64,000 nucleotides of DNA from Pelagomonas calceolata (GCA_918797485.1 CAKKNE010000003.1:2046001-2110000); one strand, 5' to 3'; shown: positions 8,556 to 24,205, counted from the first letter of the stretch. Program-made: numbers and translations. Notes: generated by a model from the sequence alone, not told the origin.

Positions 8556-10685
8556 ATGGAGCAGTGGTGCTTCCAAGACGGGGCCAGCTGGCGCCCCTAC
8601 GATGCGAAGAGCCAAAAGGCGATCGCGTCCTGCCTACGCAGCGGCAGGAAATCCTGCATCATGTGGCCGTACAAACTCGACCTCAACCAAAATACGCAAA
8701 CGAACACTGAAACAGGCAGCGTCCGCGCCATTGCCAAAAAAGTCGTGGATTCGGTGGGGGGCTCGGCGGGGAGCGTCGGCCTGGTTTGCTGCCGTCTCGG
8801 CCCGCCGCAACCCGTATACCCGCCGAACGAGATCGCCGGGAGGCGAACGGCTCCGCTGCCCCGCGACGGCGTGAGCACGGGCGACCCAAACGCGCGCTAC
8901 GACCATTTCCGCGCGCCGCGGGCCGACCACATCCTCCGCGAGGCCGACTTCGACTACGGGACCGAGCTTGCGCAGCTCGCCGCGACCGGTCCGCCGCCTG
9001 CGGGCTTCTCGCCGCGGACGCCGCCGCCGCCCGGCGCCCTCGCGCTGGACGTCGACGCCGAGGGCCGCGTCCGGGAGCGCGAGCGCATCATGCGTCTCCG
9101 CGAGTCTTGTTACTACCAATTCTGCTGCTGCACGTGCTGTTCCGACGAGCTCTACAAGTACAGCCCGGAGCGGGACGACGCCCAGGAGCGCGCGGCGGCC
9201 GCCGCCCACGGCGCCTTCGTCGACGAGGCGCGAGGCACGCTCGTCGTGACGCGCCACGCCTACCGCGCGGTCGTGCCGAAGAACTACACGACGACGGACC
9301 AGTACGGCCACAAGTTCGCCGGCATCGGCATCGGGGCGCACGACGTGTCGGAGCGAGGCTTCGCCGTACCGCTGCGCTACTGCCGGGTCGCGGCGGTGCC
9401 GGCGGGGTCCGTCGCCCGCCGGCCCCTCCTCCTCGATCCGAAGGTTTCGGACTGCAAGGTCGAGGGTTCGGTCGTCGTCGTCTCGTGCGTGCCGACCGAG
9501 GCCGCGTCGCTGGAGGTCGTCGTGGCGTGCATCGACGTGGGGCCCGCCGGCAACGCGGGCGCGTTCGTCGCCGCCGCCGCGCGGGCTGCGGCCGCGGCGC
9601 CGCCCGTGTCCGCGGCGGACCGGGCCGCCTACGACGAGTGGTTCGTCGCGACGCTGGCGCGCTCGGGCCAGACCAAGGGCCCCGGCCAGTTCCGCAAGTT
9701 CGTCGGCGGCCTCCCGACCGGGCCGGCCGCTTACCGGTCGGCGAGCACCGACTGGTTCGGCGGTGGCGCGACGATCCGCGAGCTCGGCATCCGCCTCGGC
9801 AGCGGCAACGTCGTCTTCCAGACGAAGAGGACCAACCCTGTCGTCTTCGAGCACGTCAACACGGGCGACCAACTGCACGGCATCGACGGCCGGCAATTGC
9901 CGGCCGGCGGCAAGAAGGCCGCCAAGGCCCTAGGGTCGCCCGAGTTCTGGGGCGGCAGCGCCGCGTCGGGGACCGGCGCCGGCCTGTTCACGACGCAGAC
10001 TCCCGTGTACAACCCCGCGCGAGTCTACTCTGCGCCCCCCGTCGACGCGGGAGTGGCGAGGACGGCGACGCTCGCCGCGGCGGCGCCGCCGACGATCGTG
10101 AGCGCCGGAGGCCTCGGCGCGGTCGGCGTCGCGGACGGCGACGTCATCCTCAAAGCCGTCGTGAACGGCGCGCGCGTCGACGCGGCGGCCATGGACGGCG
10201 CGGCCTTTGCCGCGGCGCTCGCGTCCGCCGCCGGGTCCGTCGTCCTGGAGTCGGTGCTGACGCTCCGCGACCCCGTCTTCGGGCAGGACCCCTGCGTGCA
10301 GCGGTCGCTCCCGTGGTGCGACATCAGCGAGGCGAACAGGACGGCGCTGCCCACGACGATGTTGGGGGTCCAAAACGCGACCCCGGTCGATGCGAATATG
10401 CCACCACAAGCCCCCGGGTGGTTCTGGCAGGAAGCGGACGGGAGGTGGATCCCCTACCGGGCGAGGGACTCGGACGAGCTCGACCGAATGAAAGCCACTG
10501 GGCGGCCCAACGCCATCGTCGCCGGCGTATACAAAGTCGACTTCCTGACCATGACGCAGACCAACACGCGCACCGGCTTCCGGCGGCCGGTGTGTCACTC
10601 CGACGGCACCGGGGAAGCCACCGTCATCCATGCCCAGCCCGCGCCGGTCTCGGGCGTGGTCGCCGTGGGGACTGTCGTCGCATAG
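8556..10685 (+). CDS. Protein with N- and C-terminal WWE-like domains, Cys cluster and PDZ-like segments (paralog A)
   Basis: WCFQDGASWRPYD...YKLDLNQNTQTNTETGSVRAI and WFWQEADGRWIPY...YKVDFLTMTQTNTRTGFRRPV match the WWE pattern. Also FCCCTCCS, and PDZ-like GDQLHGIDG and GDVILKAVVNG. Confidence 0.7.
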   Translation: MEQWCFQDGASWRPYDAKSQKAIASCLRSGRKSCIMWPYKLDLNQNTQTNTETGSVRAIAKKVVDSVGGSAGSVGLVCCRLGPPQPVYPPNEIAGRRTAPLPRDGVSTGDPNARYDHFRAPRADHILREADFDYGTELAQLAATGPPPAGFSPRTPPPPGALALDVDAEGRVRERERIMRLRESCYYQFCCCTCCSDELYKYSPERDDAQERAAAAAHGAFVDEARGTLVVTRHAYRAVVPKNYTTTDQYGHKFAGIGIGAHDVSERGFAVPLRYCRVAAVPAGSVARRPLLLDPKVSDCKVEGSVVVVSCVPTEAASLEVVVACIDVGPAGNAGAFVAAAARAAAAAPPVSAADRAAYDEWFVATLARSGQTKGPGQFRKFVGGLPTGPAAYRSASTDWFGGGATIRELGIRLGSGNVVFQTKRTNPVVFEHVNTGDQLHGIDGRQLPAGGKKAAKALGSPEFWGGSAASGTGAGLFTTQTPVYNPARVYSAPPVDAGVARTATLAAAAPPTIVSAGGLGAVGVADGDVILKAVVNGARVDAAAMDGAAFAAALASAAGSVVLESVLTLRDPVFGQDPCVQRSLPWCDISEANRTALPTTMLGVQNATPVDANMPPQAPGWFWQEADGRWIPYRARDSDELDRMKATGRPNAIVAGVYKVDFLTMTQTNTRTGFRRPVCHSDGTGEATVIHAQPAPVSGVVAVGTVVA
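8790..10343 (+). repeat. ~1.55-kb near-identical direct repeat, copy 1 (copy 2 at ~12626-14167)
   Basis: Line-by-line identity apart from a 12-bp indel near the start and scattered substitutions. Confidence 0.95.
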
Positions 10686-10744
10686 CCCCGCCCATTTTGC
10701 ACCACTATTACTAATCTAGATGCCATACAGTGTACACAAACGGG

Positions 10745-12262
10745 CTACGTCCCCCTGGCTTTTTTGGCCTCGAGCTCCGCCCGCCTCCCGGGCGTCGCCC
10801 GCGACACCGGGTCGGAGCTCCGCCACGCGAATGGAGTCGCCCACCTGGGCCAAAGACAGCTCCAGGGGTACCTCGGCACCTGGGCGAAAATTTCCCGCGC
10901 CGTCGGGTCGCCGAGGTGTGGACCGCACACGAGCTGGAAGCCGGGGCCGGAGACGGGGTTGACCTCGAGGACGTGGAAGCCGGCGCCTCCCGCCGTGAGG
11001 GTCGCGTCCCAGCCGATCCACGGGTAGGCGTCGGCGAAGTACTCGGCGCACAGGAGGTCGTGCAGGGCCGCGCACCGCTCGACCATCGCGCGCGCCCCGG
11101 GCAGCAGTCGGCCGTCGATCGGTGCGCCCGTGTTCGGGTGACGCGCGTGCAGGTTGCCGAAGAGGTCCCGCGCCGGCCCGGCGAGCCGCTCCGCTCGCCA
11201 GTCAACGTTGCAGAATATCCCACCGTCCGAGTAATTGTCGGCGGGCACTATGGTGTTCGACGGCATGCGCATGGCGCAACCCACGACGGCCGCGCCGCCC
11301 GCCGCGCGGGAACTCGTCAGGTCGACGGGCTGCGCGGTGACGACGCGGAACGTGCACAACGCGGCATTCTCGCCGACGAGCGCGCGCACGCGGTCGGTGT
11401 TGCGCAGGCGCTCCTGCACGAGCACGCCGCCCGCGTTGCTGGCGGGCGCGAGCTTTCGCCAGAGCGCCTCGGGGCTGATCACGGGGTCGCGACCTGGGAC
11501 GCGCGTCCGCCAGCCGACGGTGCCGATCTCGTCCACGTACGCGTCGTCGCGCCACGCGTACGTCTCGACGTGCCGTCCGCCGTCGAGGTAACGCGGCTTG
11601 ACGAACAGATCCTGTCGCGGGAGCCGCCCGCGGCGTAGGTCGAAGACGCGCGGGGTCGGCACGCCGCGCGAGCACAGAAAGCGAGAGAACAGCAGCTTGT
11701 CGCCGCACTGGAGGATCACGTCAGGACGCCTGCGCTCGTACATCTTCTGCAATTGAAGCTGCCGCGCCCAGGTGAGGTACAACCTCCGCTGTGTCGCCGT
11801 CTCGCGCACAGCGGCGCCCCCCGCGATCCAAGACCCGCGCAGGATCGAGAGCATCGCCTCGTCGCTCACGGTCAATTTTGCGCGCACTAGGCTCAAGACG
11901 AGCCAACTTCGCCGCGGCTGCCACATGATCCTTCGCGCCGTCGCGCCGTCGCCCGCCCGCGCCGCGCACCACGCTAGCTTCAGGAGCTGCCGCACCACGC
12001 GGGCCCGGCCCGGCCAGTGGCTCCGCGCGTGGCCCGCATGCCAGAAGCGATCCTCGTTGTCGTCGCCCAGGATCGCGGCGCGCTGCCGCCAGCCGTTGTC
12101 GAGGGCCTCCAGCGCCCAGTCGTACCGGTGCTTGCGAGCGTCGATGGCGGCAGTGTCCGCGGGCACCGCGTCCTCGGGAATCGCGTGCCGGCGTGTAGGT
12201 GTGGGTGGGGGTGGCAGTGGCAGAGGCAGCGTCATATCCACTGCGCAGGAGACTTTTGACAT
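10745..12262 (-). CDS. ATP-grasp ligase, sugar-transfer-associated (ATPgrasp_ST / alpha-L-glutamate ligase-related) type
   Basis: DKLLF...GVPTP, LFVKP...GG, VLVQERLRN, TFRVVT, DNYSDGG, HPNTG, IGWDA and LEVN. Confidence 0.75.
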   Translation of the reverse strand: MSKVSCAVDMTLPLPLPPPPTPTRRHAIPEDAVPADTAAIDARKHRYDWALEALDNGWRQRAAILGDDNEDRFWHAGHARSHWPGRARVVRQLLKLAWCAARAGDGATARRIMWQPRRSWLVLSLVRAKLTVSDEAMLSILRGSWIAGGAAVRETATQRRLYLTWARQLQLQKMYERRRPDVILQCGDKLLFSRFLCSRGVPTPRVFDLRRGRLPRQDLFVKPRYLDGGRHVETYAWRDDAYVDEIGTVGWRTRVPGRDPVISPEALWRKLAPASNAGGVLVQERLRNTDRVRALVGENAALCTFRVVTAQPVDLTSSRAAGGAAVVGCAMRMPSNTIVPADNYSDGGIFCNVDWRAERLAGPARDLFGNLHARHPNTGAPIDGRLLPGARAMVERCAALHDLLCAEYFADAYPWIGWDATLTAGGAGFHVLEVNPVSGPGFQLVCGPHLGDPTAREIFAQVPRYPWSCLWPRWATPFAWRSSDPVSRATPGRRAELEAKKARGT

Positions 12263-12330
12263 CGGCTCCTGCCGTCCCGCAGTTCAATTAACTGTTGGAG
12301 ATTGGACTGCCGACGCCAGTGAACTGCGTC

Positions 12331-12500
12331 GCTGCAAGCATTTTGACTCAGAGCAACCAGAGAGCAGCACAGTTGGTTGGGCGTTGCGAGGGGCAGCCGC
12401 AAAGAGCTGCAAGCATTTTGACTCAGAGCAGACAGAGCAGCACGAGTTTGCGCGGGGCAGCCGCAAAGGGCAGCCGCAAAGAGCAGCCGCAACAAGAGCA
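12331..12500. repeat. Short intergenic tandem duplications (GCTGCAAGCATTTTGACTCAGAGCA x2; GCAGCCGCAA x4)
   Basis: Units seen at 12331 and ~12407, plus clustered GCAGCCGCAA units at ~12393-12492. Confidence 0.8.
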
Positions 12501-12598
12501 GTCGGGCAGGGCCCCAAAACGAGGAATTAAATAAATTCAACCACCCTGATTCGAGCGCCGCGCCGCGCGTAGGTTCAGCAGTGGAGGAGGGCGGGGTG

Positions 12599-14374
12599 AT
12601 GGCGCAGCAGGCGTGCCTCCAAAAGTGCCGCCTCGGCCCGCCGCAACCCGTATACCCGCCGAACGAGTACACGGCTCCGCTGCCCCGCGACGGCGTGAGC
12701 ACGGGCGACCCAAACGCGCGCTACGACCATTTCCGCGCGCCGCGGGCCGACCACATCCTCCGCGAGGCCGACTTCGACTACGGGACCGAGCTTGCGCAGC
12801 TCGCCGCGACCGGTCCGCCGCCTGCGGGCTTCTCGCCGCGGACGCCGCCGCCGCCCGGCGCGCTCGCGCTGGACGTCGACGCCGAGGGCCGCGTCCGGGA
12901 GCGCGAGCGCATCATGCGTCTCCGCGAGTCTTGTTTCTACCAATTCTGCTGCTGCACGTGCTGTTCCGACGAGCTCTACAAGTACAGCCCGGAGCGGGAC
13001 GACGCCCAGGAGCGCGCGGCGGCCGCCGCCCACGGCGCCTTCGTCGACGAGGCGCGAGGCACGCTCGTCGTGACGCGCCACGCCTACCGCGCGGTCGTGC
13101 CGAAGAACTACACGACGACGGACCAGTACGGCCACAAGTTCGCCGGCATCGGCATCGGGGCGCACGACGTGTCGGAGCGAGGCTTCGCCGTACCGCTGCG
13201 CTACTGCCGGGTCGCGGCGGTGCCGACGGGGTCCGTCGCCCGCCGGCCCCTCCTCCTCGATCCGAAGGTTTCGGACTGCAAGGTCGAGGGTTCGGTCGTC
13301 GTCGTCTCGTGCGTGCCGACCGAGGCCGCGTCGCTGGAGGTCGTCGTGGCGTGCATCGACGTGGGGCCCGCCGGCAACGCGGGCGCGTTCGCCGCCGCCG
13401 CCGCGCGGGCTGCGGCCGCGGCGCCGCCCGTGTCCGCGGCGGACCGGGCCGCCTACGACGAGTGGTTCGTCGCGACGCTGGCGCGCTCGGGCCAGACCAA
13501 GGGCCCCGGCCAGTTCCGCAAGGTCGTCGGCGGCCTCCCGACCGGGCCGGCCGCTTACCGGTCGGCGAGCACCGACTGGTTCGGCGGTGGCGCGACGATC
13601 CGCGAGCTCGGCATCCGGCTCGACAGCAGCAACGTCGTCTTCCAGACGAAGAGGACCAACCCTGTCGTCTTCGAGCACGTCAACACGGGCGACTGCCTGC
13701 ACGGCATCGACGGCCGGCAATTGCCGGCCGGCGGCAAGAAGGCCGCCAAGGCCCTAGGGTCGCCCGAGTTCTGGGGCGGCAGCGCCGCGTCGGGGACCGG
13801 CGCCGGCCTGTTCACGACGCAGACTCCCGTGTACAACCCCGCGCGAGTCTACTCTGCGCCCCCCGTCGACGCGGGAGTGGCGAGGACGGCGACGCTCGCC
13901 GCGGCGGCGCCGCCGACGATCGTGAGCGCCGGAGGCCTCGGCGCGGTCGGCGTCGCGGACGGCGACGTCATCCTCAAAGCCGTCGTGAACGGCGCGCGCG
14001 TCGACGCGGCGGCCATGGACGGCGCGGCCTTTGCCGCGGCGCTCGCGTCCGCCGCCGGGTCCGTTGTCCTGGAGTCGGTGCTGACGCTCCGCGACCCCGT
14101 CTTCGGGCAGGACCCCTGCATGCAGCGGTCGCTCCCGTGGTGCGACATCGGCGAGGCGAACCGGACGACCCAGGTCGCGCCGGTCTCAGGCGTGGTCGCC
14201 GTGGGGACTGTCGTCGCGCCGCCGTCAACGTTCAAGGTCCAAGTGCCGCCCGGCGGCTCTGCCGGCCAAACGATCCAGATACAAGCGCCGAACGGTGTGA
14301 CGGTGCAGGTCCAAATCCCGGTTGGCTGTGCGGCGGGCTCGACGTTCGAGGTCGCGATGCCGGAACTAGCATGA
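12599..14374 (+). CDS. Paralog B of 8556-10685: lacks both WWE domains and has a different beta-rich C-terminal domain
   Basis: Core nearly identical to paralog A. Ends in TFKVQVPPGGSAGQTIQIQAPNGVTVQVQIPVGCAAGSTFEV. Confidence 0.75.
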   Translation: MAQQACLQKCRLGPPQPVYPPNEYTAPLPRDGVSTGDPNARYDHFRAPRADHILREADFDYGTELAQLAATGPPPAGFSPRTPPPPGALALDVDAEGRVRERERIMRLRESCFYQFCCCTCCSDELYKYSPERDDAQERAAAAAHGAFVDEARGTLVVTRHAYRAVVPKNYTTTDQYGHKFAGIGIGAHDVSERGFAVPLRYCRVAAVPTGSVARRPLLLDPKVSDCKVEGSVVVVSCVPTEAASLEVVVACIDVGPAGNAGAFAAAAARAAAAAPPVSAADRAAYDEWFVATLARSGQTKGPGQFRKVVGGLPTGPAAYRSASTDWFGGGATIRELGIRLDSSNVVFQTKRTNPVVFEHVNTGDCLHGIDGRQLPAGGKKAAKALGSPEFWGGSAASGTGAGLFTTQTPVYNPARVYSAPPVDAGVARTATLAAAAPPTIVSAGGLGAVGVADGDVILKAVVNGARVDAAAMDGAAFAAALASAAGSVVLESVLTLRDPVFGQDPCMQRSLPWCDIGEANRTTQVAPVSGVVAVGTVVAPPSTFKVQVPPGGSAGQTIQIQAPNGVTVQVQIPVGCAAGSTFEVAMPELA

Positions 14375-14563
14375 TCTCCTATACTTTCTAGGAGCCTTTC
14401 CCTGTCCATATCCTAATGAGTGCTATCTACAAAATACTACATTACATCCCCGGGCAGGGCGCGCGGCAGGCTAACGTCTACGGGCGCCGCGTCTTCGGGT
14501 TTCGTCTGGCGCGCGGGCCCGGGTCTGTCCAAGTACGCCCTGCGCGCGAGGCAGAGGCCGTGA

Positions 14564-14632
14564 AAAAGGTATAAACTCCTTCCGGGTCAGCTGCCCTGAG
14601 GGCAGCTAACCCTGTAGGAGTTCATGCCTTTT
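14564..14632. repeat. Inverted repeat / hairpin (33-bp arms, 3-nt loop, 5 mismatches)
   Basis: AAAAGGTATAAACTCCTTCCGGGTCAGCTGCCC-TGA-GGGCAGCTAACCCTGTAGGAGTTCATGCCTTTT. Confidence 0.85.
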
Positions 14633-14941
14633 CCCCTGCCGGGGGCTGCTCCGCAAGGGTGCCAAATCCGGCGTGGGGGGTGATGATTCGGGTTTAAGAC
14701 TTTTTGATTCTTATAAACCACCGATTTCGGGTTTCGCGGAGGTTTGCTGAGTCTTCGTGGCGTAAGGTGCGGAGCATTCGATTCGCCGACCGGAACGTTG
14801 AATTTCTCGCGGTGAAACGTGCTGACGGAACGTCAGTACGCTTTGCCTTGGCAAAGTTTAACGCTTTGCACAGCAAAGTCGAACGTTATGTATACCCACA
14901 TCAAGTAGCCTCTCTTTAGGTCTAAGTTGCCTTCACTTAGA

Positions 14942-16345
14942 CTAGGCATACCCACGCCCCCTCCGGGGGCGTAGGCCGGCGCGAAGCGGCTTGCCCGTCG
15001 GGCCCACGGGGAGCGCCGGTGCGGTGCAGATGTACTGCGGTCGCCTCGCGGCCGCGAGATAAGGTTCTAAAAACGACCGCAGCTCCGCGAGCGTCGGCGC
15101 CGCCCCGCGCGGCACCACGAGGAGTCCGATCGCCTCGCCGAGCGCGTCGTGTGGCACGGCAAAACAGACGCACGCGGCGATGCGGGGGTGGCGCAGGCAC
15201 GCGTCCTCGACCTCCAGCGGTGACACCACCTCGCCGCCGCGATTTATGATTTCCTTCGCGCGGCCCGTGAGCGTGAGCCAGCCGTCCGGGTCGATGCGGC
15301 CGAGGTCGCCGGTCGCGAACCATTCCTTGGCGTCGTGTGAGACGAGCGGGCCGCGGATGAGGACTTCGCCCCGCTCGGATATCGCCAGCTCCGGGCCGAT
15401 CGCCGGGCCGACGCTGCCCGCCCGGTCCAGCTCGTACGAGCCGCGCGGCGAAGCAATCGGCATACATTCCGTCATCGAATACGTCGGGAGGACGACGGCC
15501 CCGGACCAGGCGCGCAGCTCCTCGGCGACGGCCGCGGGCAGCGCGGCCGCGCCGCTGCGGTAGAGGCGTACGGCGCGCGGGGGCGTCGCTCCCGGCGTGC
15601 GCGCGGCGAGAATAGCTTGCAGGTGCGACGGCACGCAGTAAATCCAGGTGACGCGCGGCGAGAGGTTGTCGAGGTTCAGGACGTCGGTGGGCGAGAAGGT
15701 TTTGACGTAGACCGCCGCCGAGCCCGACACGAGCGGCGAGTAGATGTTGGAGACGATCCCGCCGATGTGGTGGAGCGGCATGAAATTGAGGCAGCAGTCC
15801 GAGGGTCGCAGCGCGAGCGATCGCGCGATGGCTTCCCCGCCCGCGACGAGCTGCTGTCGCGTCTTCGCCACGATTTTGGGTCTTCCGGTCGTGCCCGACG
15901 TTCGTAGCAAGAGACAAGGCCGGTTGGCCGCCGGATCGGCCACGACCGCATCCGGTCCTGGGAGGTGAAACGTCGCGCCGGCCTCTCCCGCTTTGGGAAC
16001 CGCGACGACGACCGCTGTGCCGACGGCGGCCGCGGCCGAGGCCGCGGGGCCGGCGGCCGCGTCGACGACGCACCCGGCGCAGCCAGCGAGCGCAACTCGC
16101 AGCTCCACCACCGCCGCGTTCGGGTCGAGCGGCACCGCGACCGCCCAGTGCGCCACTCGCAGCAAGCTCAGGGCCAAGTCGGCGCCGTTCTGCATCGCGA
16201 TCGCCACCCGCGTCGACGCGTCGACGCCGCGCAGGTCATCGTGCAGCAGCGTGCGCAAAGCGGCAAAGGTGCAGGGGCCGCGTGCGGAGTCGAAGCCGTC
16301 GTGGGCAAAGGGCAAAGATCCCGGTGCTGCAGCACCAGGTAGCAT
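14942..16345 (-). CDS. AMP-forming acyl-CoA synthetase / adenylation enzyme (ANL superfamily, oxalate-CoA-ligase-like)
   Basis: RTSGTTGRPK, MPLHHIGG, PTYSMTE, WFATGDLG, GRAKEIINRGGE and PVGPTGKP. Confidence 0.88.
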   Translation of the reverse strand: MLPGAAAPGSLPFAHDGFDSARGPCTFAALRTLLHDDLRGVDASTRVAIAMQNGADLALSLLRVAHWAVAVPLDPNAAVVELRVALAGCAGCVVDAAAGPAASAAAAVGTAVVVAVPKAGEAGATFHLPGPDAVVADPAANRPCLLLRTSGTTGRPKIVAKTRQQLVAGGEAIARSLALRPSDCCLNFMPLHHIGGIVSNIYSPLVSGSAAVYVKTFSPTDVLNLDNLSPRVTWIYCVPSHLQAILAARTPGATPPRAVRLYRSGAAALPAAVAEELRAWSGAVVLPTYSMTECMPIASPRGSYELDRAGSVGPAIGPELAISERGEVLIRGPLVSHDAKEWFATGDLGRIDPDGWLTLTGRAKEIINRGGEVVSPLEVEDACLRHPRIAACVCFAVPHDALGEAIGLLVVPRGAAPTLAELRSFLEPYLAAARRPQYICTAPALPVGPTGKPLRAGLRPRRGRGYA

Positions 16346-16434
16346 TTTCGCCTCTGTTGCAAAGCACTTGGAAACAATGCAAGGAACGCCTCTGCATCGA
16401 TTAGCTCATGTGCCGCAAGCGGAGATGCAGCCCA

Positions 16435-16455
16435 CTCTCTCTCTCTCTCTCTCTC
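16435..16455. repeat. (CT)n microsatellite
   Basis: Run of about 10 CT dinucleotides. Confidence 0.9.
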
Positions 16456-16578
16456 GCCCCCTAGCCCAACGAGCCCGTAAGGCTGAAACTGGCTCCGTCT
16501 CAGACCTCTCTCTCGCCCCTCGGGCCTGGCCGCTGGGCTCTGCGGGGCTGCCTGCCTTCTTGGCTTTTGCCTTTTTGG

Positions 16579-16600
16579 CTAGTGCCTTTCACGACGCTAG
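16579..16600 (-). promoter_or_regulatory. CTAG-box motif, divergent copy (CTAGCGTCGTGAAAGGCACTAG)
   Basis: 18/22 match, between the divergent ligase and GT2 genes. Confidence 0.5.
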
Positions 16601-16680
16601 GGGCGCTGCGGCGCGCGCGCGCGGTGCCTTACGATGCCACACGGCACCGCAAACGGCATGGGGCAGCCCTAAGATGAACC

Positions 16681-18705
16681 ATGGAGAGCAACACACAAGC
16701 CATTCGCGTCGTGGCGCACCTGCGGTTTGACGACGACCACGAGCTACCCGCCAGCCGCGCCTACATAGATGGCGTGCTAGGGCGCGGCGGCCTGCGCAGC
16801 GAGGACGCGACGGCCGGCACGATCGGCGCGCTGGCCGCGGCGGCGCGGCGGCGCGACGTGCTCTGGGCGGTCGCAGCCGTGCCGTGCGACGCGTGGGTCG
16901 CCGCGCGGCGGCGGCGGGTCGGCGACGAGCCTGTCGACGCGACGGCGGCGGTCGCACGGAGCCGCGCCGCGTGGCATCGCGCGGTGCTCGAAACGCTGCC
17001 GCCGGACCGCGTCACGCTTCGGGACCCCGCGGACGACGAGGCGTTCCTAGATCTCGTCGCCGGGGCGGCCGGCCTGGCGCTCGGCGGGCGCGCACCGCGC
17101 GGCCGCACCCTGCGCGCCGCCAACGACAATCCGGCCGTCGTCCGGTCCCACGTGCTCGCGGCGGTGACGCTCGGCCCGGACGCGACGGCCGCGGACCGCA
17201 CGGCGCACGGCGCGGCGTGCCTGCTCCTGCCGACGGCCGCGGACCGCGCCTTCGCGGCGCGCGCGCTCGGCGGGACCGCGGCGCTCAACGCCAAGCGGTG
17301 GGTCGAGCGCGCGACGGGTGATACGGTTCGCCCCGCGGACTGGCGCGCGCGCATCGACGTCGTCGTGCCAACCGTGCGCCTCGACGCGGTCGCCGTCGCC
17401 CGCGTCGCGGCGCTTGCTGCGCCCGCGTGCCTGCCGGGCCTCACGCTCCTCGTCGTCGTCGACGAGCCCGCCGAGCAGAGCCGCGAGGGCGACCGTGCCG
17501 AGCGGCTGCGCGCGGCGCTCGCGGCGGCGCGCGCGGCGCGCGGCGGCGGCGGCCTCTACGTCCGCGTGCTTTCGACGGCCGGCCGCGCGCGGCCCGCGCG
17601 GCGGCCCTGCGAATCCGCGGCGGCGCGCCACCGCGGTACGGCCGGCGCCGCCGCCGCGCGGAACGTCGGCCTCGAGGCGTCGCGTGCGGAGTGGTGCGTG
17701 CTGCTCGACGACGACGTGGAACCGGCGCCGGACCTCCTCTACCGCTACGCGGACGCGGCGCACGCGGCCGGAGGCGACGCGGCGTGCGTCGGCCTCGCGG
17801 GCCTCACGGTCTTCCGCGACGCCGGCGACCGGTTTTCGCGCGCGGCGCGCTCGCTGGGCATGGTCGTGAACTTCGACAACGCGGCGACGTGGGCCGACGA
17901 CCCGGGCGGGCCGCCCTGGGCACCGACGGCGAACCTGATGGTGCGGCGCGTCTGGCCCGGGGGCAACGACGACGACGTCGAAGCGCCGCTCGCGGCGGTC
18001 GCGGCGCGCTTCGACGAGCGGTGCCCGCGCAACGGCGGCGCCGAGGACGTCGAGCTCGCGGCGCGCGCGCGGGCCGCGGGCCTGCGCCTCCGGGCGGCGC
18101 CGGGCGCGGTCGCGGCGCACGACCTGTGGCCCTGGCGCGGACAGCTCGCGCGCGCGTGCCGCTGGGGCCGCGCCACCGCGCTCCTTGCGGTCGCGCACCC
18201 GCGCCACGTCAAGCGGCGCCTTCCCAACGCCGTCGAGTGGACGGCCGGCGCGCTGGCGTATGGCCTCGCGCGCGCGCCGCGCCGGGCGCCCGCATACGCC
18301 CTCGCGATCCTCCTGGGACGGTTCTCGGCGTTAGCCGTCCGCCAGCATCGCAACGCGGTCGAAAACGAGCGCCTCAACAGCCATCTGCCGCCCGCGGAGC
18401 GCGTCGAAATGGGCGGCGGCGTTGGCTGCGCGGGAGCCTGGGATCGGTTTGTCGTCCACGGACTTCTGCGCGCGATTCTTGTCCTGGCGAGTGACTGCGG
18501 CGACTTCGCGGGCGCCGCAGCGCTCGTGCCGACCTTCGTCGCGTCCGGCTTCGACGGGCGCTACCTCTTCTTCGGCAGGGCATTCGACTACACGCTGGGC
18601 GCGCGCGCGCAGAAACCCCGCGGGCGGGCCGACGTCGTCACCGACGTCGCGAGCGTCGCAGGAATGCTCGCGTTCATCGTCCTGCTGGGAGAGTGGGTGC
18701 TGTAG
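16681..18705 (+). CDS. Family 2 glycosyltransferase (GT-A fold) with hydrophobic C-terminus
   Basis: IDVVVPT, GAAAARNVGL, WCVLLDDD, TANL and GGAEDVEL. C-terminal TM-like segments. Confidence 0.8.
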   Translation: MESNTQAIRVVAHLRFDDDHELPASRAYIDGVLGRGGLRSEDATAGTIGALAAAARRRDVLWAVAAVPCDAWVAARRRRVGDEPVDATAAVARSRAAWHRAVLETLPPDRVTLRDPADDEAFLDLVAGAAGLALGGRAPRGRTLRAANDNPAVVRSHVLAAVTLGPDATAADRTAHGAACLLLPTAADRAFAARALGGTAALNAKRWVERATGDTVRPADWRARIDVVVPTVRLDAVAVARVAALAAPACLPGLTLLVVVDEPAEQSREGDRAERLRAALAAARAARGGGGLYVRVLSTAGRARPARRPCESAAARHRGTAGAAAARNVGLEASRAEWCVLLDDDVEPAPDLLYRYADAAHAAGGDAACVGLAGLTVFRDAGDRFSRAARSLGMVVNFDNAATWADDPGGPPWAPTANLMVRRVWPGGNDDDVEAPLAAVAARFDERCPRNGGAEDVELAARARAAGLRLRAAPGAVAAHDLWPWRGQLARACRWGRATALLAVAHPRHVKRRLPNAVEWTAGALAYGLARAPRRAPAYALAILLGRFSALAVRQHRNAVENERLNSHLPPAERVEMGGGVGCAGAWDRFVVHGLLRAILVLASDCGDFAGAAALVPTFVASGFDGRYLFFGRAFDYTLGARAQKPRGRADVVTDVASVAGMLAFIVLLGEWVL

Positions 18706-18744
18706 GTCGCTAGACTGTTGTCATGTAGTACATACACATATTTG

Positions 18745-20940
18745 TTACACCGCCGCGTCGCCGCCGAGCAGCCGGGCCTCGTCTTCGTGGCGGCCGCGAT
18801 ACCTCCGCGGCCACGGCCACGGCCACGGCGACCACCGCGGACACGCGGCGCGCGGCGCGACGTCGGCGAGAGACGCGTCTGCGTCGCGCACGGCCCCGGA
18901 CGCGAGGTCGAATAGCCAAAAGGTGGCGCCCGCCAGAAGGTACGCCAGGAGGCGCGCGATGCGCGCGTGGGCGCGCAGGCGCGCATTGAACGCGCCGCCC
19001 GCGCGCAGGACGAGGTGGATCAAGCCGCGAACGGCCGCGTTCTCCGTCGCGGCGCGCGGCATCGTCGCGGCGACCGGCGACCGCACGCCTGCGCGCGCCG
19101 GCACGACCGCCCCGCGCTCGTCCCGCGCCCAGGGCTGCGGCGCGTTCACGATGCACCGCATTGGACTGCCCTCGACGGCGACGCTCGCGCTGTGCACCAT
19201 CAGCGGATGCAGCACGTAGACGTCGCCGGCGCGCCCCGTGGCGGCGACGACGTCCGCGGCGGGCGCCGCCGCGCGGCATGCGGCGCAGAGAGCGTGCATG
19301 CCGCGGACGTCGAGGCCCCGGGGCGCCGCCGCGAGCGCCTTCCCCATCGCGCGGTGGCTCCCCCGGAGGAGCAGCGTCGGCCCGGCATCGGGACGCACGT
19401 CCGTCAGGAGGACGAGCACGACGACGTGGGCGCTCGCGAGGTAGTCCTCGAGCTCGAAGGCGTGCGGCGCCGCGCCGCGGCGGCCGTTTCCGTGGTCGAT
19501 GTGCCACGTCGCCGCGAACTCTCCCGGCAGCGTCGCGGCCGGGTCGAGCGGGGACGGCGGCGCCCAGGTCCCGGCCGTCCCGCGGCGGTGCGTCGTCACC
19601 CACGCGCCAAAGGCGCCCGGCGGCGCGTCCGGCAGCGAGAGCGCGGCGAGCGGTGCGGCGAACAGCGGCGCGTCGATCGCCGCGGCGACGGCTCCCGCGA
19701 GCGCCGCGCCCGCGGCGCGCTCGGCGGCGCCGAAGGGCACCACCTCGCGCGACCGACCGTAGGCGCCCGCGTCGCGCGCGGCCGCGGCGCCCACCAGCGC
19801 CGCTCTAAGGACCGGCGCGTCGAAGGCGCCGGACAGCTTGGCGAAGCCGTCGTTGGCGAGGCGCCGCGCCACGTCAGCGGCCGCCGGGTCGGCATAGGCG
19901 GACGCGAGCAATGCGCCCGTCGACGGGTGGAGCCGGCGCCGCAGCGCCCAGCGCAGGGCCGCGCGTGGCGTTGGCGCGCCCCAGGTCCAGACGTCGACGC
20001 CCCGCAGCGCGACGAGAGCCGAGACGGTCGCGTCGTCGAGCGGTCGGTCGAGGTCTTCCGGCGACCTCAACAAGTCGCGGAGCTGGCGGTGCGACGTGAC
20101 CTGGACTAACGCCGAGGCGATACCCGGCGCGTGCGCGGCGAAGCGTATCGCGACGTCCTGCGGCCGCGAGCCGCAGGCGTCGGCGATGCCGCCGAACGCG
20201 GCGACGCGGCGCAGCAGCTCGCGGAACGGCACGCGCGCGCGGCCGTCGCCGCCCGCCCCGACCTCGCGCGGTAGCAGGTCGGCCCGGCCCGCGAGCAGCG
20301 CGCGCGCGACGCCGACGCCCTGCGTCGTGAGCCAGCCCTGGGCGAGGACCGACTGGGCCAACACGCCCACGCCGGCGCTGCGGCAGCCGTCGATGAGCGC
20401 GGCGTGCTCCTGCTGGAGCACGTTGAACGGCACCTGGAGTGCGTCGCAGCCCAGCGCCACGCAGCGGCGGCCGCACTCGAACGAGTGCACGCTCGCGCCC
20501 CAGCCGCCGATTTCCCCGGCAGTGACCGCGGCCTCGAGGACCTGCGCCACGGCCGGCGTGACGGCGTCCGCGGGCGGCGAGTGCAGCTGGTAGAGCGCGA
20601 GCCGCTTGCCGCGGAGCGCGGCGCGGCTCGCATCCAGCGCCGCGCGGCCCGCCGCGACGGACCAGTCGTGCTCGTATCCGTTCCGCGCGCACGGGTTGCC
20701 GTACTTCGTCGCCACGGCGACGCCGCAAGACGCCAGGCCGACGACGAACTCCGAGTGGCCGTACGCGTCAGATGTGTCGACGAGCGCGACGCCCGCGCGG
20801 CAAGCGGCCTCGAGAATGCGGGCGCCCTCTCCGTCCCCCAGCGTGGCCCCACCCAGCGAGACGGCCGCCACCGCGTCGCCCGCGCGACGCAAAAGGCGGC
20901 GTGTGCAGGCGAGCCGCCCGGGCGCTGGCGCCTCTGCCAT
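18745..20940 (-). CDS. Aldo-keto reductase fused to a PhyH-like 2OG-Fe(II) dioxygenase (copy 1)
   Basis: AKR motifs VDTSDAYGHSE, VATKYG, LYQLHSP and QVPFN. Dioxygenase motifs WHID, LLTDV...GPT...GSH and GDVYVLHPLMVHSAS. Confidence 0.8.
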   Translation of the reverse strand: MAEAPAPGRLACTRRLLRRAGDAVAAVSLGGATLGDGEGARILEAACRAGVALVDTSDAYGHSEFVVGLASCGVAVATKYGNPCARNGYEHDWSVAAGRAALDASRAALRGKRLALYQLHSPPADAVTPAVAQVLEAAVTAGEIGGWGASVHSFECGRRCVALGCDALQVPFNVLQQEHAALIDGCRSAGVGVLAQSVLAQGWLTTQGVGVARALLAGRADLLPREVGAGGDGRARVPFRELLRRVAAFGGIADACGSRPQDVAIRFAAHAPGIASALVQVTSHRQLRDLLRSPEDLDRPLDDATVSALVALRGVDVWTWGAPTPRAALRWALRRRLHPSTGALLASAYADPAAADVARRLANDGFAKLSGAFDAPVLRAALVGAAAARDAGAYGRSREVVPFGAAERAAGAALAGAVAAAIDAPLFAAPLAALSLPDAPPGAFGAWVTTHRRGTAGTWAPPSPLDPAATLPGEFAATWHIDHGNGRRGAAPHAFELEDYLASAHVVVLVLLTDVRPDAGPTLLLRGSHRAMGKALAAAPRGLDVRGMHALCAACRAAAPAADVVAATGRAGDVYVLHPLMVHSASVAVEGSPMRCIVNAPQPWARDERGAVVPARAGVRSPVAATMPRAATENAAVRGLIHLVLRAGGAFNARLRAHARIARLLAYLLAGATFWLFDLASGAVRDADASLADVAPRAACPRWSPWPWPWPRRYRGRHEDEARLLGGDAAV

Positions 20941-21015
20941 CACGAGGCTGCCCCGCGCTCGAGCCACGATGCTTGCTTGCCTAAACGCGCGGGAGCCCTG
21001 GAAGCCCCGATCGCG

Positions 21016-21037
21016 CTAGCGGCCTGTAAGACACTAG
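21016..21037 (+). promoter_or_regulatory. CTAG-box motif (CTAGCGGCCTGTAAGACACTAG)
   Basis: About 75 bp upstream of AKR-PhyH copy 1. Confidence 0.6.
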
Positions 21038-21165
21038 CAGTCAAGCATTTTCGGCCCCGTCGTAAAAGAGGAGCCAGCGGCCAGTTCCACATCCTGATGG
21101 GGGGCGTCCCGAAGAGGGGGGGGGCGTGCGAGTCCCTGCGACTCAGCCCTTGCGTCCTAGTCCAG

Positions 21166-21240
21166 CCGGACGGGTGGGCCCGGCCGCCCGGGGGGAGCGG
21201 GAGGGGTACGGGGGACCCTACGACGTAACTAGCCTGAGCC
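21166..21240 (-). repeat. Dispersed non-coding repeat, reverse complement of the unit at 57432-57653
   Basis: Reverse complement GGCTCAGGCTAGTTACGTCGTAGGGTCCCCCGTACCCCTCCCGCTCCCCCCGGG...GCCCACCCGTCCGG matches 57587-57653. Confidence 0.88.
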
Positions 21241-21311
21241 AAGCGGGTTTCCCCCAAGCTCTAAACGGGTTTTCGAGGGCCCGCGGGCCGAGAAAACAGA
21301 CACAGTCGAAT

Positions 21312-23565
21312 CTACGGGTCCCCGCCGCCGCGCTGGAGGAGCGGCGTATCATCGTCATAGCCGCTGCCGCCGACCTCCGCGTCGGGCGCGGGCGAGGGCC
21401 GGCGCCCGCGGCGTCCGAGCCATCCCCAAGCGCGGCGCGGCCGCGGCGCCTGGCGCGCGGCGGGCGCGGCGCAGCGGCAGAGGAGCGCGAAGCCGAGCGC
21501 GGCGGGCCAGTAGAGGAGCCACGCGAGGCGCGGGAAGCGCGCGCGGCACCGCTGGTGGAGCGCGCCGAAGGCCGCGGTCCACGCGACGAGCGGGACGACG
21601 AGCGGCCCGCAGCAGCCGCCCCCCCGCAACGCGTCGCGGATCGGAAGGTCGAGCGCGGAAAGCGATCCCTTCGCTGTTCGGCGCGGCCGCGCCGGGTACG
21701 GCAAGTTCAGGATCGCACGTGGCGCCCGGCGCGTCGATGCGGAGGCGGTGTGGAGCAGCAGCGGGTGGACGAGGAACGCGTCGCCCGCGGCGCCGACGAG
21801 CGTCGTCGCGTCGGCGTCGCCGAAGTACGAATCCGCCGCCGCACAGAGCGCGTACATGCGCGGCGTGTCCAGGAGGACCCGGCGCCACGGGCCGAGGCCC
21901 GCGAGGATGTTCGCCATCACCCGCTGGGATCCGGGCCACGCGACCGTCGGGCCCTGGTCCCGCGCCACGTCCGTCAGGAGGACATAAACGACGCACCAGG
22001 GCGCTAGCAGCTGATCCTCGAGCGCAAAGTCCCAGGCGGCGCCGTGCGGGCCGTGGTCGACGTGGTGGCCGTTGGCGACGCCGAGGCCCCAGGGCGAGAG
22101 GCCCGTCGCGACCGCCTCGCGGCCGCTCGGGCAGCGCCACGCCGCGACGCCCGGCGTCGCGCGGGCGTGCGCGACGACGTTTGCGGCGAAGGCCTTCTCC
22201 GCTCTCCCGGACCGACGCGGCCACGCGTCCGCGAAGCTGTCGACGGCAAACGGCGGCGTCGCGCGGCGGCAGCAGGTCGCGTCGTCGAGGATGGCGGCGA
22301 GCGCCGCCTCCAGGTCGCCCGGGAACGCGCCGGCGGCGAGCGGCGCGGCGACGTCGCGGTGGAAGTACGACGCCTGCGGTCGGCCCGGCTCGGCGACCGC
22401 GCCCGCTGCAAGCGCGCTCGCCACGTCCCGCGGGAATGCGCCACGGAAGGGCCCCGCGACGCCGCGCGTCGCGAAGTCCCGGCGCCATCTGGCCTCGTGC
22501 GGCGCGTAGCGGCCGCCCGCGTCGTAGAAGCCTGCGTGCCGCGTCGTTCGCGAACGATACGTGCGCGAAATACCATGGAAGACGACGAGGCGGACGCCGC
22601 GCCGCGCCGCCCGCGCTCCGGAGGGCCTCCGTCGCGTGCAGCTCCTCGAGCACGTCGCGTGGCGTCGGCCCCGCCCAGTCCCAGACGCGCGCGGCGCCGC
22701 CGTGGGCGCGGTCGCCCGGCGACGTTCCCAACGCAACGAGCGCCGCGCGCGCCGACTCCGGCAGCGGCTCGTCGAGACCGGCGCCGGCGACGAGGTCCGC
22801 GAGGCCCCGTGCGTCGTGCGCCTGGACGAGCGCCGAGGTCACGCCCGTCGCGTGCGCGGCAAAGCGCAGCGCGAGGTGTTCGACGCGCACGCCGCAGCCC
22901 TCGGCGACGGCCGCGACCGCGACGACGCGCTCGAAGAGCGCCCGCCGGCGCGGCGCGGATTCGTGGAGGAGACCGAGGCGAGCGGCCGCGACGCCGCGCG
23001 CCGTGAGCCAGCCGCGCGCGAGCGCGGACCTCGCGAGCACGCCGACGCCGCGCGCCGCGCAGGCGGCGAGGAGCGGCGCGAGCGACTGGTCCAGGGCGTT
23101 GAACGGCGCCTGGAGGCAGCGCGCGCCTGCGGCGACCGCGGCCGCGCCCGCCGCGTAGCTCTCGACCGACGCGCCCCACGCGCCGACGACGCCGCCCGCG
23201 ACGAGGCGCCCGAGCGTCTCGACGAGCGCCACGTCGTAGGCGAAGTCGTCGGGCGGCGAGTGGAGCTGGTAGAGCGCGATGCGCCGCCGCCGCAGCCGCG
23301 CGACGGCCTCGGCCGCCGCCGCCGTGCACCGCGACGCGGAGAAGTCGCCGCCGAACTTGGAGGCCACGTGGAGCGACTGGCCGTGCGCGCCGAGGAGCGC
23401 CTCCGAGGCGCCGTAGGAGTCCGCCGTGTCCGCGAGGCGCACGCCTAGGTCCGAGGCCGCCCGCAGCAGCTCCGCCGCCGCGCCCGGGCGCAGCGTCGCG
23501 GCGCCCAGCGAGACGCAGGCGACTTCGCAGCCCGGGTAGAGCGACCGCGTGTCGCGCAGCGCCAT
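21312..23565 (-). CDS. Aldo-keto reductase fused to a PhyH-like dioxygenase (copy 2); predicted 64-nt intron 22532-22595
   Basis: AKR motifs ADTADSYGASE, VASKFG, LYQLHSP and QAPFN lie in frame 21355-23658. Dioxygenase motifs HHVD, LLTDV...GPT..WPGS and GDAFLVHPLLLHTAS lie in frame 21312-22736. A GTCCGC...CGCAG intron joins the two frames exactly. Confidence 0.75.
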
Positions 23566-23684
23566 TACAACAGCTCCCGCAGCATGAGCTTTAGGAGAGG
23601 GCGGCGGGGGCTGCCCCGCAATAAGATTCCGCTTCCCTGGGGGCGGACAAGGCCGCAATACTCTCCGCCGCGCGCGCGCTGCTG

Positions 23685-23756
23685 CGGGTATTTAGCCCCC
23701 CCTCCCAGCACGAAAAGCTCTCGCGCGTTTCGTGCGGGGTGGGGGGCTAAAACCCG
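23685..23756. repeat. Imperfect inverted repeat / hairpin (~30-bp arms)
   Basis: CGGGTATTTAGCCCCCCCTCCCAGCACGAAA ... TTTCGTGCGGGGTGGGGGGCTAAAACCCG. Confidence 0.75.
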
Positions 23757-23805
23757 TCTAGCGGGGCGCCCAGCAAAGGTCCCTGCGGCCGGCTCTAGTA
23801 CCTCA

Positions 23806-23999
23806 CGGAACGTGTCCAATGTGACGGATATGAGTGCTATGTTTAAAAACGCAACCTCCCTCAACCAACCGTTCAATGATTGGAACGTGTCACGAATATG
23901 AGACTTATGTTTTGTAACGCAACGTCCTTCAACCAGCCGCTCGACAACTGGAACGTGTCCAATGTGCACGATATGAAATTCATGTTTAAAGAAGCATGA
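23806..23999 (+). pseudogene. Frameshifted fragment of a BspA/DUF285-type surface repeat protein
   Basis: NVSNVTDMSAMFKNATSLNQPFNDWNVS, then a frameshift, then MRLMFCNATSFNQPLDNWNVSNVHDMKFMFKEA*. No plausible start. AT-rich relative to its flanks. Confidence 0.8.
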
Positions 24000-24205
24000 C
24001 GCAAAACTCACTAGGGCCTGTGTCTCTAGAGTGTGTGCCCCGTACCGTTAACGGTACGGGGCATACGCCGCCGAGGCGCGAAGGCGACAACGTTCGTCGG
24101 GCTCCACGCCATGGACGCGACGGTCCGCTCCGTCGTCGGCGCGCGCAGGCCGCACGAGCTCGGGGCCTTGGACGGACGGTAACAAATAGCGACGAATTCA
24201 CACAA

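What the first reader, a model, noticed from the sequence alone, without database searches (positions are those of the whole stretch)
14942..23565. Candidate algal biosynthetic gene cluster / acquired island
Seen: four contiguous small-molecule enzyme genes (adenylate-forming ligase, GT2 glycosyltransferase and two AKR-dioxygenase fusions). They are visibly more GC- and GCG/CGC-rich than the flanking housekeeping genes and nearly intronless. Hairpins (14564, 23685) and a DUF285 relic bracket them, and an ATP-grasp ligase lies ~2.7 kb away. Inference: a pathway that activates an acid, then hydroxylates, reduces and glycosylates a metabolite or surface lipid/glycan. There is no PKS/NRPS core, so standard cluster finders could miss it. 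The substrate cannot be read from the sequence.
Basis: inference. Interest (0 to 1): 0.7.

Follow-up and report, generated by a model that had tools for sequence, protein, structure and literature searches.

The report
Broken self-loading acyltransferase in algal cluster
In wild populations of an abundant ocean microalga, the ligase in this gene group is a longer fusion enzyme that likely activates a small acid, carries it on its own arm and attaches it to a membrane lipid or sugar, but in this genome a small repeat element has replaced the middle of that gene.

Summary
The 467-aa 'ligase' is a broken allele. Wild contigs encode an 837-aa NRPS-like protein: adenylation domain, carrier domain (GVDSL, Ser506) and a GPC1/GPCAT-like (DUF2838) membrane acyltransferase. 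Here a 410-nt hairpin-ended repeat replaces 1,015 nt (codons 459-796), and the last 41 codons remain at 14437-14562. The '14564 hairpin' therefore lies inside the gene, and a transcript from cultured Pelagomonas calceolata ends the same broken way. The right-hand 'bracket' is absent from two wild contigs. An acquired bacterial island is not supported: the A domain falls in a clade with eukaryotic and no named bacterial members, a paralog sits on another contig, cluster genes carry the host's 23-nt upstream motif, and host genes match their GC3. The enzyme likely loads a small non-oxalate acid and transfers it to a membrane acceptor. Whether the GT2 and two AKR-dioxygenase fusions serve the same product is open (about 45%). 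I found no A-T-GPC1-like fusion in print or in another organism.

The parts
14973..16345 (-). Codons 1-458 of an NRPS-like gene: complete adenylation domain of the eukaryotic 'TECMP' clade. In this genome the frame runs 9 codons into the inserted element and stops at 14942-14944 (467 aa).
   Evidence: Pfam AMP-binding and AMP-binding_C; 98.7% identical to residues 1-458 of the wild 837-aa protein P0053; tree; same broken C-terminus in transcript proteins P0222/P0373, the latter named P. calceolata
14563..14972 (.). 410-nt hairpin-ended dispersed repeat (GC 0.53) that replaces 1,015 nt of the gene (carrier domain and most of the membrane acyltransferase); no target-site duplication seen; family unresolved
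   Evidence: junctions against wild contig L001; fold and inverted repeats; divergent copies, loose ends and raised depth in RNA and metagenome data; no Rfam match at gathering level
14437..14562 (-). Orphaned last 41 codons and stop of the same gene
   Evidence: 97.6% match to P0053 residues 797-837; translation
16579..16601 (+). Host 23-nt CTAG-flanked upstream motif in the divergent intergenic stretch of ligase and GT2 (80 nt before the GT2 ATG)
   Evidence: PWM score 22.3 here and 24.5 in L001; 0-1 hits at or above 12 in each of 5 shuffles
16681..18705 (+). GT2 glycosyltransferase, 674 aa: unannotated N-terminal 220 aa, GT-A domain (LDDDV 342, GGAEDVEL 452, RWGR 494), hydrophobic C-terminus
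   Evidence: Pfam PF00535 above cut-off; weak EpsD and MftF matches; ESM look-alikes are GT2 clusters; hydropathy; motifs
18745..20940 (-). AKR1: aldo-keto reductase (D55, Y60, K79, H120) fused to a PhyH-type Fe/2-oxoglutarate dioxygenase (H480, D482, H583, R595) and a hydrophobic tail ending in an acidic dileucine-like motif
   Evidence: residue roles from established family knowledge
21015..21037 (-). Host 23-nt motif, 75 nt upstream of the AKR1 ATG
   Evidence: present in L001-L003
21047..21245 (.). Polymorphic repeat insertion, absent or replaced in wild contigs
   Evidence: L002, L003; partial copies near 57440-57650; very high metagenome depth
21312..23565 (-). AKR2: tandem paralog of AKR1, 725 aa, with one 76-nt GC-AG intron (22532-22607)
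   Evidence: RNA contig joint; open spliced frame with intact motifs
23621..24020 (.). Hairpin repeat and DUF285 relic; not present next to AKR2 in wild contigs L002 and L003
   Evidence: metagenome contigs also leave the window at 23609-23620
10745..12262 (-). Sugar-transfer-associated ATP-grasp ligase (505 aa), possible fifth member; lies between two near-identical copies of an unrelated gene
   Evidence: Pfam ATPgrasp_ST; duplication with 3,824-nt spacing

Best explanation
The core of this locus is a gene of the alga's own lineage that in wild alleles encodes an adenylation-carrier-membrane fusion, which likely works as a self-loading acyltransferase, and in this genome a 410-nt repeat has replaced its carrier and most of its membrane domain. 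Shown: the architecture, the break, the neighbours and the intact catalytic motifs. Inferred mechanism: (1) the A domain adenylates a small, neutral, non-oxalate acid; (2) the acyl group goes to a phosphopantetheine on Ser506; (3) the GPC1-like six-helix domain takes it on Cys625, assisted by His674, and passes it to a hydroxyl on a membrane-side acceptor (glycerophospho head group, lysolipid or lipid-linked sugar), with no free acyl-CoA needed. The head-to-head GT2 most likely adds a sugar to the same lipid acceptor, and the membrane-anchored AKR-dioxygenase fusions would hydroxylate or oxidise-and-reduce it. This one-pathway reading is the weakest step (about 45%). The confidence given is for the enzyme mechanism plus host-lineage origin.
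For: 15 of 15 other listed members of the ligase's 260-member cluster are 837 aa. Wild contig L001 encodes all 837 residues, and AKR1, GT2 and the ligase in the same order; two further metagenome contigs leave the window at 14973. PP-binding match at 480-546 (E 0.006) and DUF2838 at 589-661 (E 4.6e-5). ESM feature search: 29 of 30 hits are DUF2838 clusters, top score 0.91. A 68%-identical membrane domain (P0227) keeps Cys and His and also matches DUF2838. GPC1 is reported to have a predicted Cys/His dyad in a six-helix core (10.1101/2022.07.06.498872, passages). The same A-T module is fused to a different membrane acyltransferase (AT3, PF01757) in a P. calceolata paralog family and other sequences, so an acyltransferase has been placed behind this module at least twice. 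The oxalate-specific Ser289 and His319 of AAE3 (PMC8905533, passages) are Ala266 and Pro296 here. The A domain sits in a 100/100 clade with a diplonemid, an MMETSP sequence and the paralog, with 0 of 12 named bacterial rows. pN/pS against wild alleles is 0.23-0.48 in 7 of 7 comparisons, on small counts.
Against: Both domain matches fall just under the Pfam cut-offs (17.3 vs 20.8 bits; 24.1 vs 25.2). Mapping Cys625/His674 onto the GPC1 dyad rests on recalled GPC1 motifs; no GPC1 sequence was fetched and both folds failed (pLDDT 37). Hydropathy found only 3 windows at or above 1.5 in the membrane domain. The gene is dispensable in culture. Against one pathway: AKR1 sense depth is 0.1-0.3 against 10-16 for the ligase in 4 of 4 runs (GC and 3' bias confound this); orthologous AKR-PhyH loci of other algae (7 loci, 0.2-1.6 kb upstream flanks) show no GT2, ligase or ATP-grasp; pelagophyte biosynthetic genes are reported to be little clustered (PMC10366177). 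Most rows of the tree have no taxon label.
Confidence: 0.62

Rival explanations
1. Chance neighbourhood: non-essential, fast-evolving enzyme genes have piled up in a plastic GC-rich region and serve different products.
For: Only three independent units, since AKR1 and AKR2 are paralogs. The region has a 99% tandem duplication and at least three polymorphic insertions. Expression is uneven. Orthologs elsewhere have other neighbours. The A-T paralog is on another contig.
Against: No housekeeping gene interrupts 8.6 kb of rare, membrane-anchored tailoring enzymes. Ligase and GT2 are head-to-head around one host motif. The order is kept in wild contigs.
Confidence: 0.4
2. Recently acquired island, as the first reader proposed (bacterial source, hairpins as borders).
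For: Highest GC and NCG use in the window; GT2 look-alikes in the ESM atlas are mostly prokaryotic; about 3.5% of P. calceolata orthogroups are reported as recent transfers.
Against: DUF2838 is reported only from eukaryotes. The A domain groups apart from the bacterial rows. No close prokaryotic GT2, ATP-grasp or PhyH relative was found (low sensitivity). There is a spliceosomal intron and the host upstream motif. The hairpins are later insertions. Older alga-to-alga transfer of the AKR-PhyH gene is not excluded.
Confidence: 0.08
3. The genes make the 19'-butanoyloxy group of fucoxanthin: the dioxygenase hydroxylates C19', the AKR keeps it as an alcohol, and the A-T-acyltransferase adds butanoyl.
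For: The pigment is abundant in P. calceolata and its biochemical basis is stated as unresolved (10.64898/2026.09.29.755320, section 23). The A pocket looks neutral and small. AKR-PhyH fusions were found only in this alga and in other GC-rich eukaryotes that look like haptophytes (taxon is recalled from intron repeats, not tested).
Against: No hydrophobic signal segment appears at the N-terminus of the ligase, AKR1 or AKR2, so plastid import is unlikely. AKR reads are very low. A cultured strain carries the broken gene. A GT2 is not needed.
Confidence: 0.04
4. The short 467-aa product is a working stand-alone acyl-CoA ligase and the loss is neutral or selected.
For: The whole A domain including Lys452 is kept, and it is transcribed at about the level of cytochrome b5 reductase in another culture sample whose allele is not known.
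Against: It appears only in culture-derived records; the break is a recent replacement by a repeat.
Confidence: 0.15

Closest known systems
GPC1/GPCAT (PF10998, DUF2838) of yeast and plants; ATGY superfamily with TMEM164 and AIG1
   Same: Multi-helix membrane domain matching PF10998, with candidate Cys/His dyad
   Different: Known GPCATs are stand-alone and use acyl-CoA or lysolipid donors, and were reported absent from heterokonts (PMC5122774). Here the domain is fused behind an A-T loading module and scores just below the family cut-off.
Eukaryotic NRPS-like A-T-X enzymes ('Other(A)' in PMC7073580; A-T-AT3, A-T-LbH and A-T-FSH1 types seen)
   Same: A domain of the same clade plus a carrier domain and one terminal domain; no condensation domain
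   Different: The terminal domain is GPC1-like. Only 1 of the best 150 library hits matched this domain, and it was a separate 262-aa ORF.
Dlt system (DltA, DltC, DltB) of Gram-positive bacteria (recalled)
   Same: Logic: adenylate, load a carrier, transfer through a membrane acyltransferase to a surface polymer or lipid
   Different: One polypeptide, unrelated acyltransferase fold, acid rather than D-alanine; no homology claimed
Oxalyl-CoA synthetase AAE3/PCS60
   Same: Best solved-structure matches, E about 1e-46
   Different: Ser289 and His319 replaced by Ala and Pro, His216 by Gly; carrier domain present

Membership tests
NRPS-like A-T-X enzyme (wild allele) | Adenylation domain with core motifs and catalytic Lys | tested here: met
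   TSGTTGRPK 149, TGD 345, Lys452; Pfam
NRPS-like A-T-X enzyme (wild allele) | Carrier domain with G-x-D-S-L serine | tested here: met
   GVDSL, Ser506; Pfam E 0.006 but below cut-off; the paralog passes the cut-off
NRPS-like A-T-X enzyme (wild allele) | Phosphopantetheinylation and self-loading | not testable with these tools
   needs biochemistry
NRPS-like A-T-X enzyme (window allele) | Carrier domain present | tested here: not met
   codons 459-796 absent from the window
Canonical NRPS | Condensation domain | tested here: not met
   none in P0053 at E up to 1
GPC1/GPCAT (PF10998) | PF10998 match at the curated cut-off | tested here: inconclusive
   24.1 vs 25.2 bits, E 4.6e-5; P0227 23.7 bits; ESM 29 of 30 hits DUF2838
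GPC1/GPCAT (PF10998) | Cys/His dyad in a six-helix core | tested here: inconclusive
   Cys625 and His674 conserved with P0227; mapping to GPC1 is recalled; models unusable
GPC1/GPCAT (PF10998) | Acylates glycerophosphocholine | not testable with these tools
   needs an assay
Oxalyl-CoA synthetase | Ser289 and His319 equivalents | tested here: not met
   Ala266 and Pro296
GT2 glycosyltransferase | GT-A domain with DxD motif | tested here: met
   PF00535 31.6 vs 23.3 bits; LDDDV 342
Aldo-keto reductase | Asp-Tyr-Lys-His tetrad | tested here: met
   both fusions
Fe/2-oxoglutarate dioxygenase (PhyH-type) | HxD...H triad and downstream Arg | tested here: met
   both fusions
Eukaryotic biosynthetic gene cluster | Three or more enzyme classes adjacent | tested here: met
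Eukaryotic biosynthetic gene cluster | Co-expression | tested here: inconclusive
   4 runs of one sample, uneven and GC-biased depth
Eukaryotic biosynthetic gene cluster | Linkage conserved in other species | tested here: inconclusive
   not seen in 7 other-alga loci, but flanks are short and no related genome was available
Eukaryotic biosynthetic gene cluster | One shared product | not testable with these tools
   needs knockouts and lipidomics
Horizontally acquired island | Composition unlike host genes | tested here: not met
   GC3 matched by host genes; NCG use is only moderately higher
Horizontally acquired island | Nearest relatives in a donor lineage | tested here: not met
   ligase tree; no close prokaryotic GT2, PhyH or ATP-grasp; GT2 and ATP-grasp trees not built
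Horizontally acquired island | Mobile-element borders flanking the block | tested here: not met
   left hairpin is inside a gene, right one is polymorphic

The most novel reading that the evidence does not exclude
A true algal biosynthetic cluster, built around a previously undescribed self-loading GPC1-family acyltransferase (a one-protein, eukaryotic counterpart of the Dlt logic), makes an acylated, hydroxylated glycolipid or wall component in wild Pelagomonas calceolata, one of the most abundant ocean eukaryotes. The cultured strain behind this genome has lost it through a repeat insertion, giving a ready natural mutant.
Probability: 0.33. Interest if true: 0.8.

Novelty: new variant of a known kind. 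Interest (0 to 1): 0.6.

Why it matters
It adds a new terminal domain to eukaryotic NRPS-like enzymes and places a GPC1-like acyltransferase in a heterokont, where the family was reported absent. It suggests that this acyltransferase fold can take acyl groups from a built-in carrier. It also warns that the reference genome of a globally abundant alga lacks a gene that wild alleles keep intact, so cluster finders miss it. Comparing lipids of strains with the intact and the broken allele would test the product directly.

Tried and rejected
No whole genome was held, so genome-wide repeat counts and paralog screens were not possible. Two AlphaFold jobs gave unusable models (pLDDT 37.6 and 37.2), so no fold search was run. 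Viral contigs held no relative of the ligase, of the AKR-PhyH alignment or of a 19-nt piece of the repeat. The idea that the 410-nt element is an omega-RNA-type element was not supported by Rfam (7 weak chance-level hits). PDB searches with the membrane domain and with a PhyH part found nothing meaningful. The 13 distant AKR loci L011-L023 are stand-alone AKRs at about 30% identity; the 6 whose ORFs I listed showed no similar gene group. A frameshift in AKR2 was rejected in favour of an intron. An assembly error for the ligase break was rejected because transcript-derived proteins end identically; those transcripts are paralog chimeras at their 5' end. The allele of the RNA sample could not be told. 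The word-indexed homolog searches scored only about 8,000 candidates each, so few hits are no proof of rarity. Three look-ups of earlier findings returned nothing. A pairwise GT2-ligase comparison showed no similarity.
Full report
Source. No genome was held. The window's proteins lie on a 5,385,517-nt contig, window GC is 0.652, and matching runs are one cultured organism and marine metagenomes. A transcript protein named Pelagomonas calceolata ends with the same C-terminus as the window's ligase, and a 66-68% identical paralog is CAH0377258.1 of that species on a 5.29-Mb contig. I infer that the window is P. calceolata.

Genes. Pfam confirms an AMP-binding ligase, a GT2, two AKR-PhyH fusions and an ATPgrasp_ST ligase 2.7 kb away. 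The second fusion changes frame near 22600. A wild protein called without splicing reads on in the same frame (P0004), so this is no sequencing error. An RNA contig skips 76 nt there, and a GC-AG intron at 22532-22607 gives a 725-aa protein with intact motifs. About 14% of P. calceolata introns are reported as GC-AG.

The ligase is broken. Its 90%-identity cluster has 260 members; the 15 others listed are all 837 aa. Residues 1-458 map to 16345-14972 and residues 797-837 to 14562-14440. Wild contig L001 carries the full gene and shows that 1,015 nt were replaced by 410 nt (14563-14972) with no duplicated target site. Two more metagenome contigs leave the window at 14973. The inserted piece has GC 0.53, a long hairpin at one end and a short GC hairpin at the other, and divergent copies elsewhere. 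Transcript proteins P0222 and P0373 end in the same read-through tail, so the break exists in culture and is transcribed.

What the intact protein is. The missing part holds a carrier domain (PP-binding, E 0.006, GVDSL with Ser506) and a membrane domain matching DUF2838 (E 4.6e-5), both slightly under the curated cut-offs. The ESM atlas returned DUF2838 clusters for 29 of 30 hits. DUF2838 is the domain of yeast Gpc1 and plant GPCAT, acyltransferases reported from eukaryotes only and not from heterokonts (PMC5122774, passages). A preprint places GPC1 in a six-helix superfamily with a Cys/His dyad (passages). P0053 has Cys625 in FEACY and His674 in FLHLAP, both kept in a 68%-identical ORF of unknown origin (P0227); that these are the dyad is inferred from recalled GPC1 motifs, since both structure predictions failed. 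The A domain is nearest to oxalyl-CoA synthetases among solved structures but lacks their two specific residues. In a 32-row tree it falls in a 100/100 clade of 16 rows that holds a diplonemid, an MMETSP sequence and the Pelagomonas paralog and none of the 12 named bacterial rows; most other rows are unlabelled. Members of this clade end in AT3 acyltransferase, LbH or hydrolase domains. Of the best 150 among 91,408 library hits, one matched the membrane domain and none had the full architecture; the list is dominated by A domains, so rarer fusions could be missed.

Island or not. The block is the GC peak of the window (0.753), but the neighbouring 8556-14374 is 0.709, and CbbX, a G-patch gene and the WWE-like pair have equal GC3. 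GT2, AKR1 and AKR2 do have the highest NCG use. A 23-nt motif occurs 8 times in the window against 0 in 100 shuffles. It lies 75-194 nt upstream of start codons of housekeeping genes and of AKR1, and a variant lies between the ligase and GT2; RNA molecule ends lie about 26-28 nt from it at two genes. The region takes up insertions often: the repeat at 21047-21245 and the sequence right of 23620 differ in L002 and L003, and L001 differs upstream of AKR1. No close prokaryotic or viral relatives were found. I therefore reject a recent bacterial island; older transfer between algae stays open.

One pathway or not. For: uninterrupted adjacency, head-to-head ligase and GT2, hydrophobic tails on all four proteins, the same order in wild contigs and pN/pS of 0.23-0.48 in 7 comparisons with few changes. 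Against: AKR1 and AKR2 are paralogs; AKR-PhyH fusions of other algae (39-50% identity) showed no GT2, ligase or ATP-grasp in 7 short loci; sense depth per 1,000 million letters is 10-16 for the ligase, 2-5.5 for the GT2 3' end, 1.8-6.9 for the AKR2 3' end and 0.1-0.3 for AKR1 in 4 runs of one sample, with strong GC and 3' bias; and another pelagophyte is reported to have little clustering (PMC10366177, first part and passages). I put one pathway at about 45%.

Mechanism. Most likely the intact enzyme adenylates a small neutral acid, loads it on its carrier and transfers it through the Cys/His membrane domain to a lipid or lipid-linked sugar. The GT2 would glycosylate, and the AKR-dioxygenases would hydroxylate or invert a hydroxyl on, the same acceptor. 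A role in 19'-butanoyloxyfucoxanthin, whose enzymes are unresolved (outline, passages and section 23), is attractive but unlikely without plastid leaders.

Literature. Searches for DUF2838 (6 papers), Gpc1 catalytic residues, algal NRPS-like acyltransferases and GPCAT-adenylation fusions (10 of 167 listed) showed no such fusion in titles or abstract starts. I read passages of PMC7073580, PMC13027849, PMC9481584 and PMC8905533, and the outline and two sections of 10.1101/2024.10.30.620910. No supplements were read.

Verdict. The genes are real and the locus is more specific than first described: a new variant of NRPS-like enzyme, intact in wild alleles and broken here, among candidate tailoring genes. 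Interest 0.6.

Noticed in passing
window 7005, 8370, 16579, 21015, 25376, 26866, 29668, 53826, 55407: A strongly conserved 23-nt CTAG-flanked motif lies 75-194 nt upstream of many start codons, and about 26-28 nt from RNA ends at DIM1 and the PITH gene; likely a core promoter element of this alga. One literature search found no paper holding all five terms.
   Followed up: partly
window 8556-10685 and 12599-14374: Two about 99% identical copies of an unannotated gene, 3,824 nt apart, flank the ATP-grasp gene; the first has two WWE domains, the second none. Wild contigs at the second position carry indels like the first copy.
   Followed up: no
window 14563-14972: Repeat with a different hairpin at each end and no target-site duplication, tied to a 1-kb deletion; resembles rolling-circle-type non-autonomous elements (recalled, untested).
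   Followed up: partly
L001 1-142: Upstream of the AKR1 motif this wild contig has a different sequence that looks like the end of a retrotransposon ORF (recalled), so the spot next to the motif may be an insertion hotspot.
   Followed up: no
C-termini of AKR1, AKR2, P0002, P0003: All end with an acidic dileucine-like motif after hydrophobic helices, a possible sorting signal for endomembranes.
   Followed up: no
P0201 (CAH0377258.1), P0234, P0241: A-T-AT3 acyltransferase fusions with the same A-domain type; the Pelagomonas paralog shares the pocket residues and might cover for the broken gene.
   Followed up: partly
window 1-858: Nuclear CbbX-like AAA gene (name from the sequence, Pfam gives AAA) with the highest GC3 in the window (0.95).
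   Followed up: no
window 38693-48142 (-): Single 3,150-aa ORF with no Pfam match at E 0.01.
   Followed up: no
window 12331-12405: 75-nt tandem duplication upstream of the ATP-grasp gene, absent from a wild contig.
   Followed up: no
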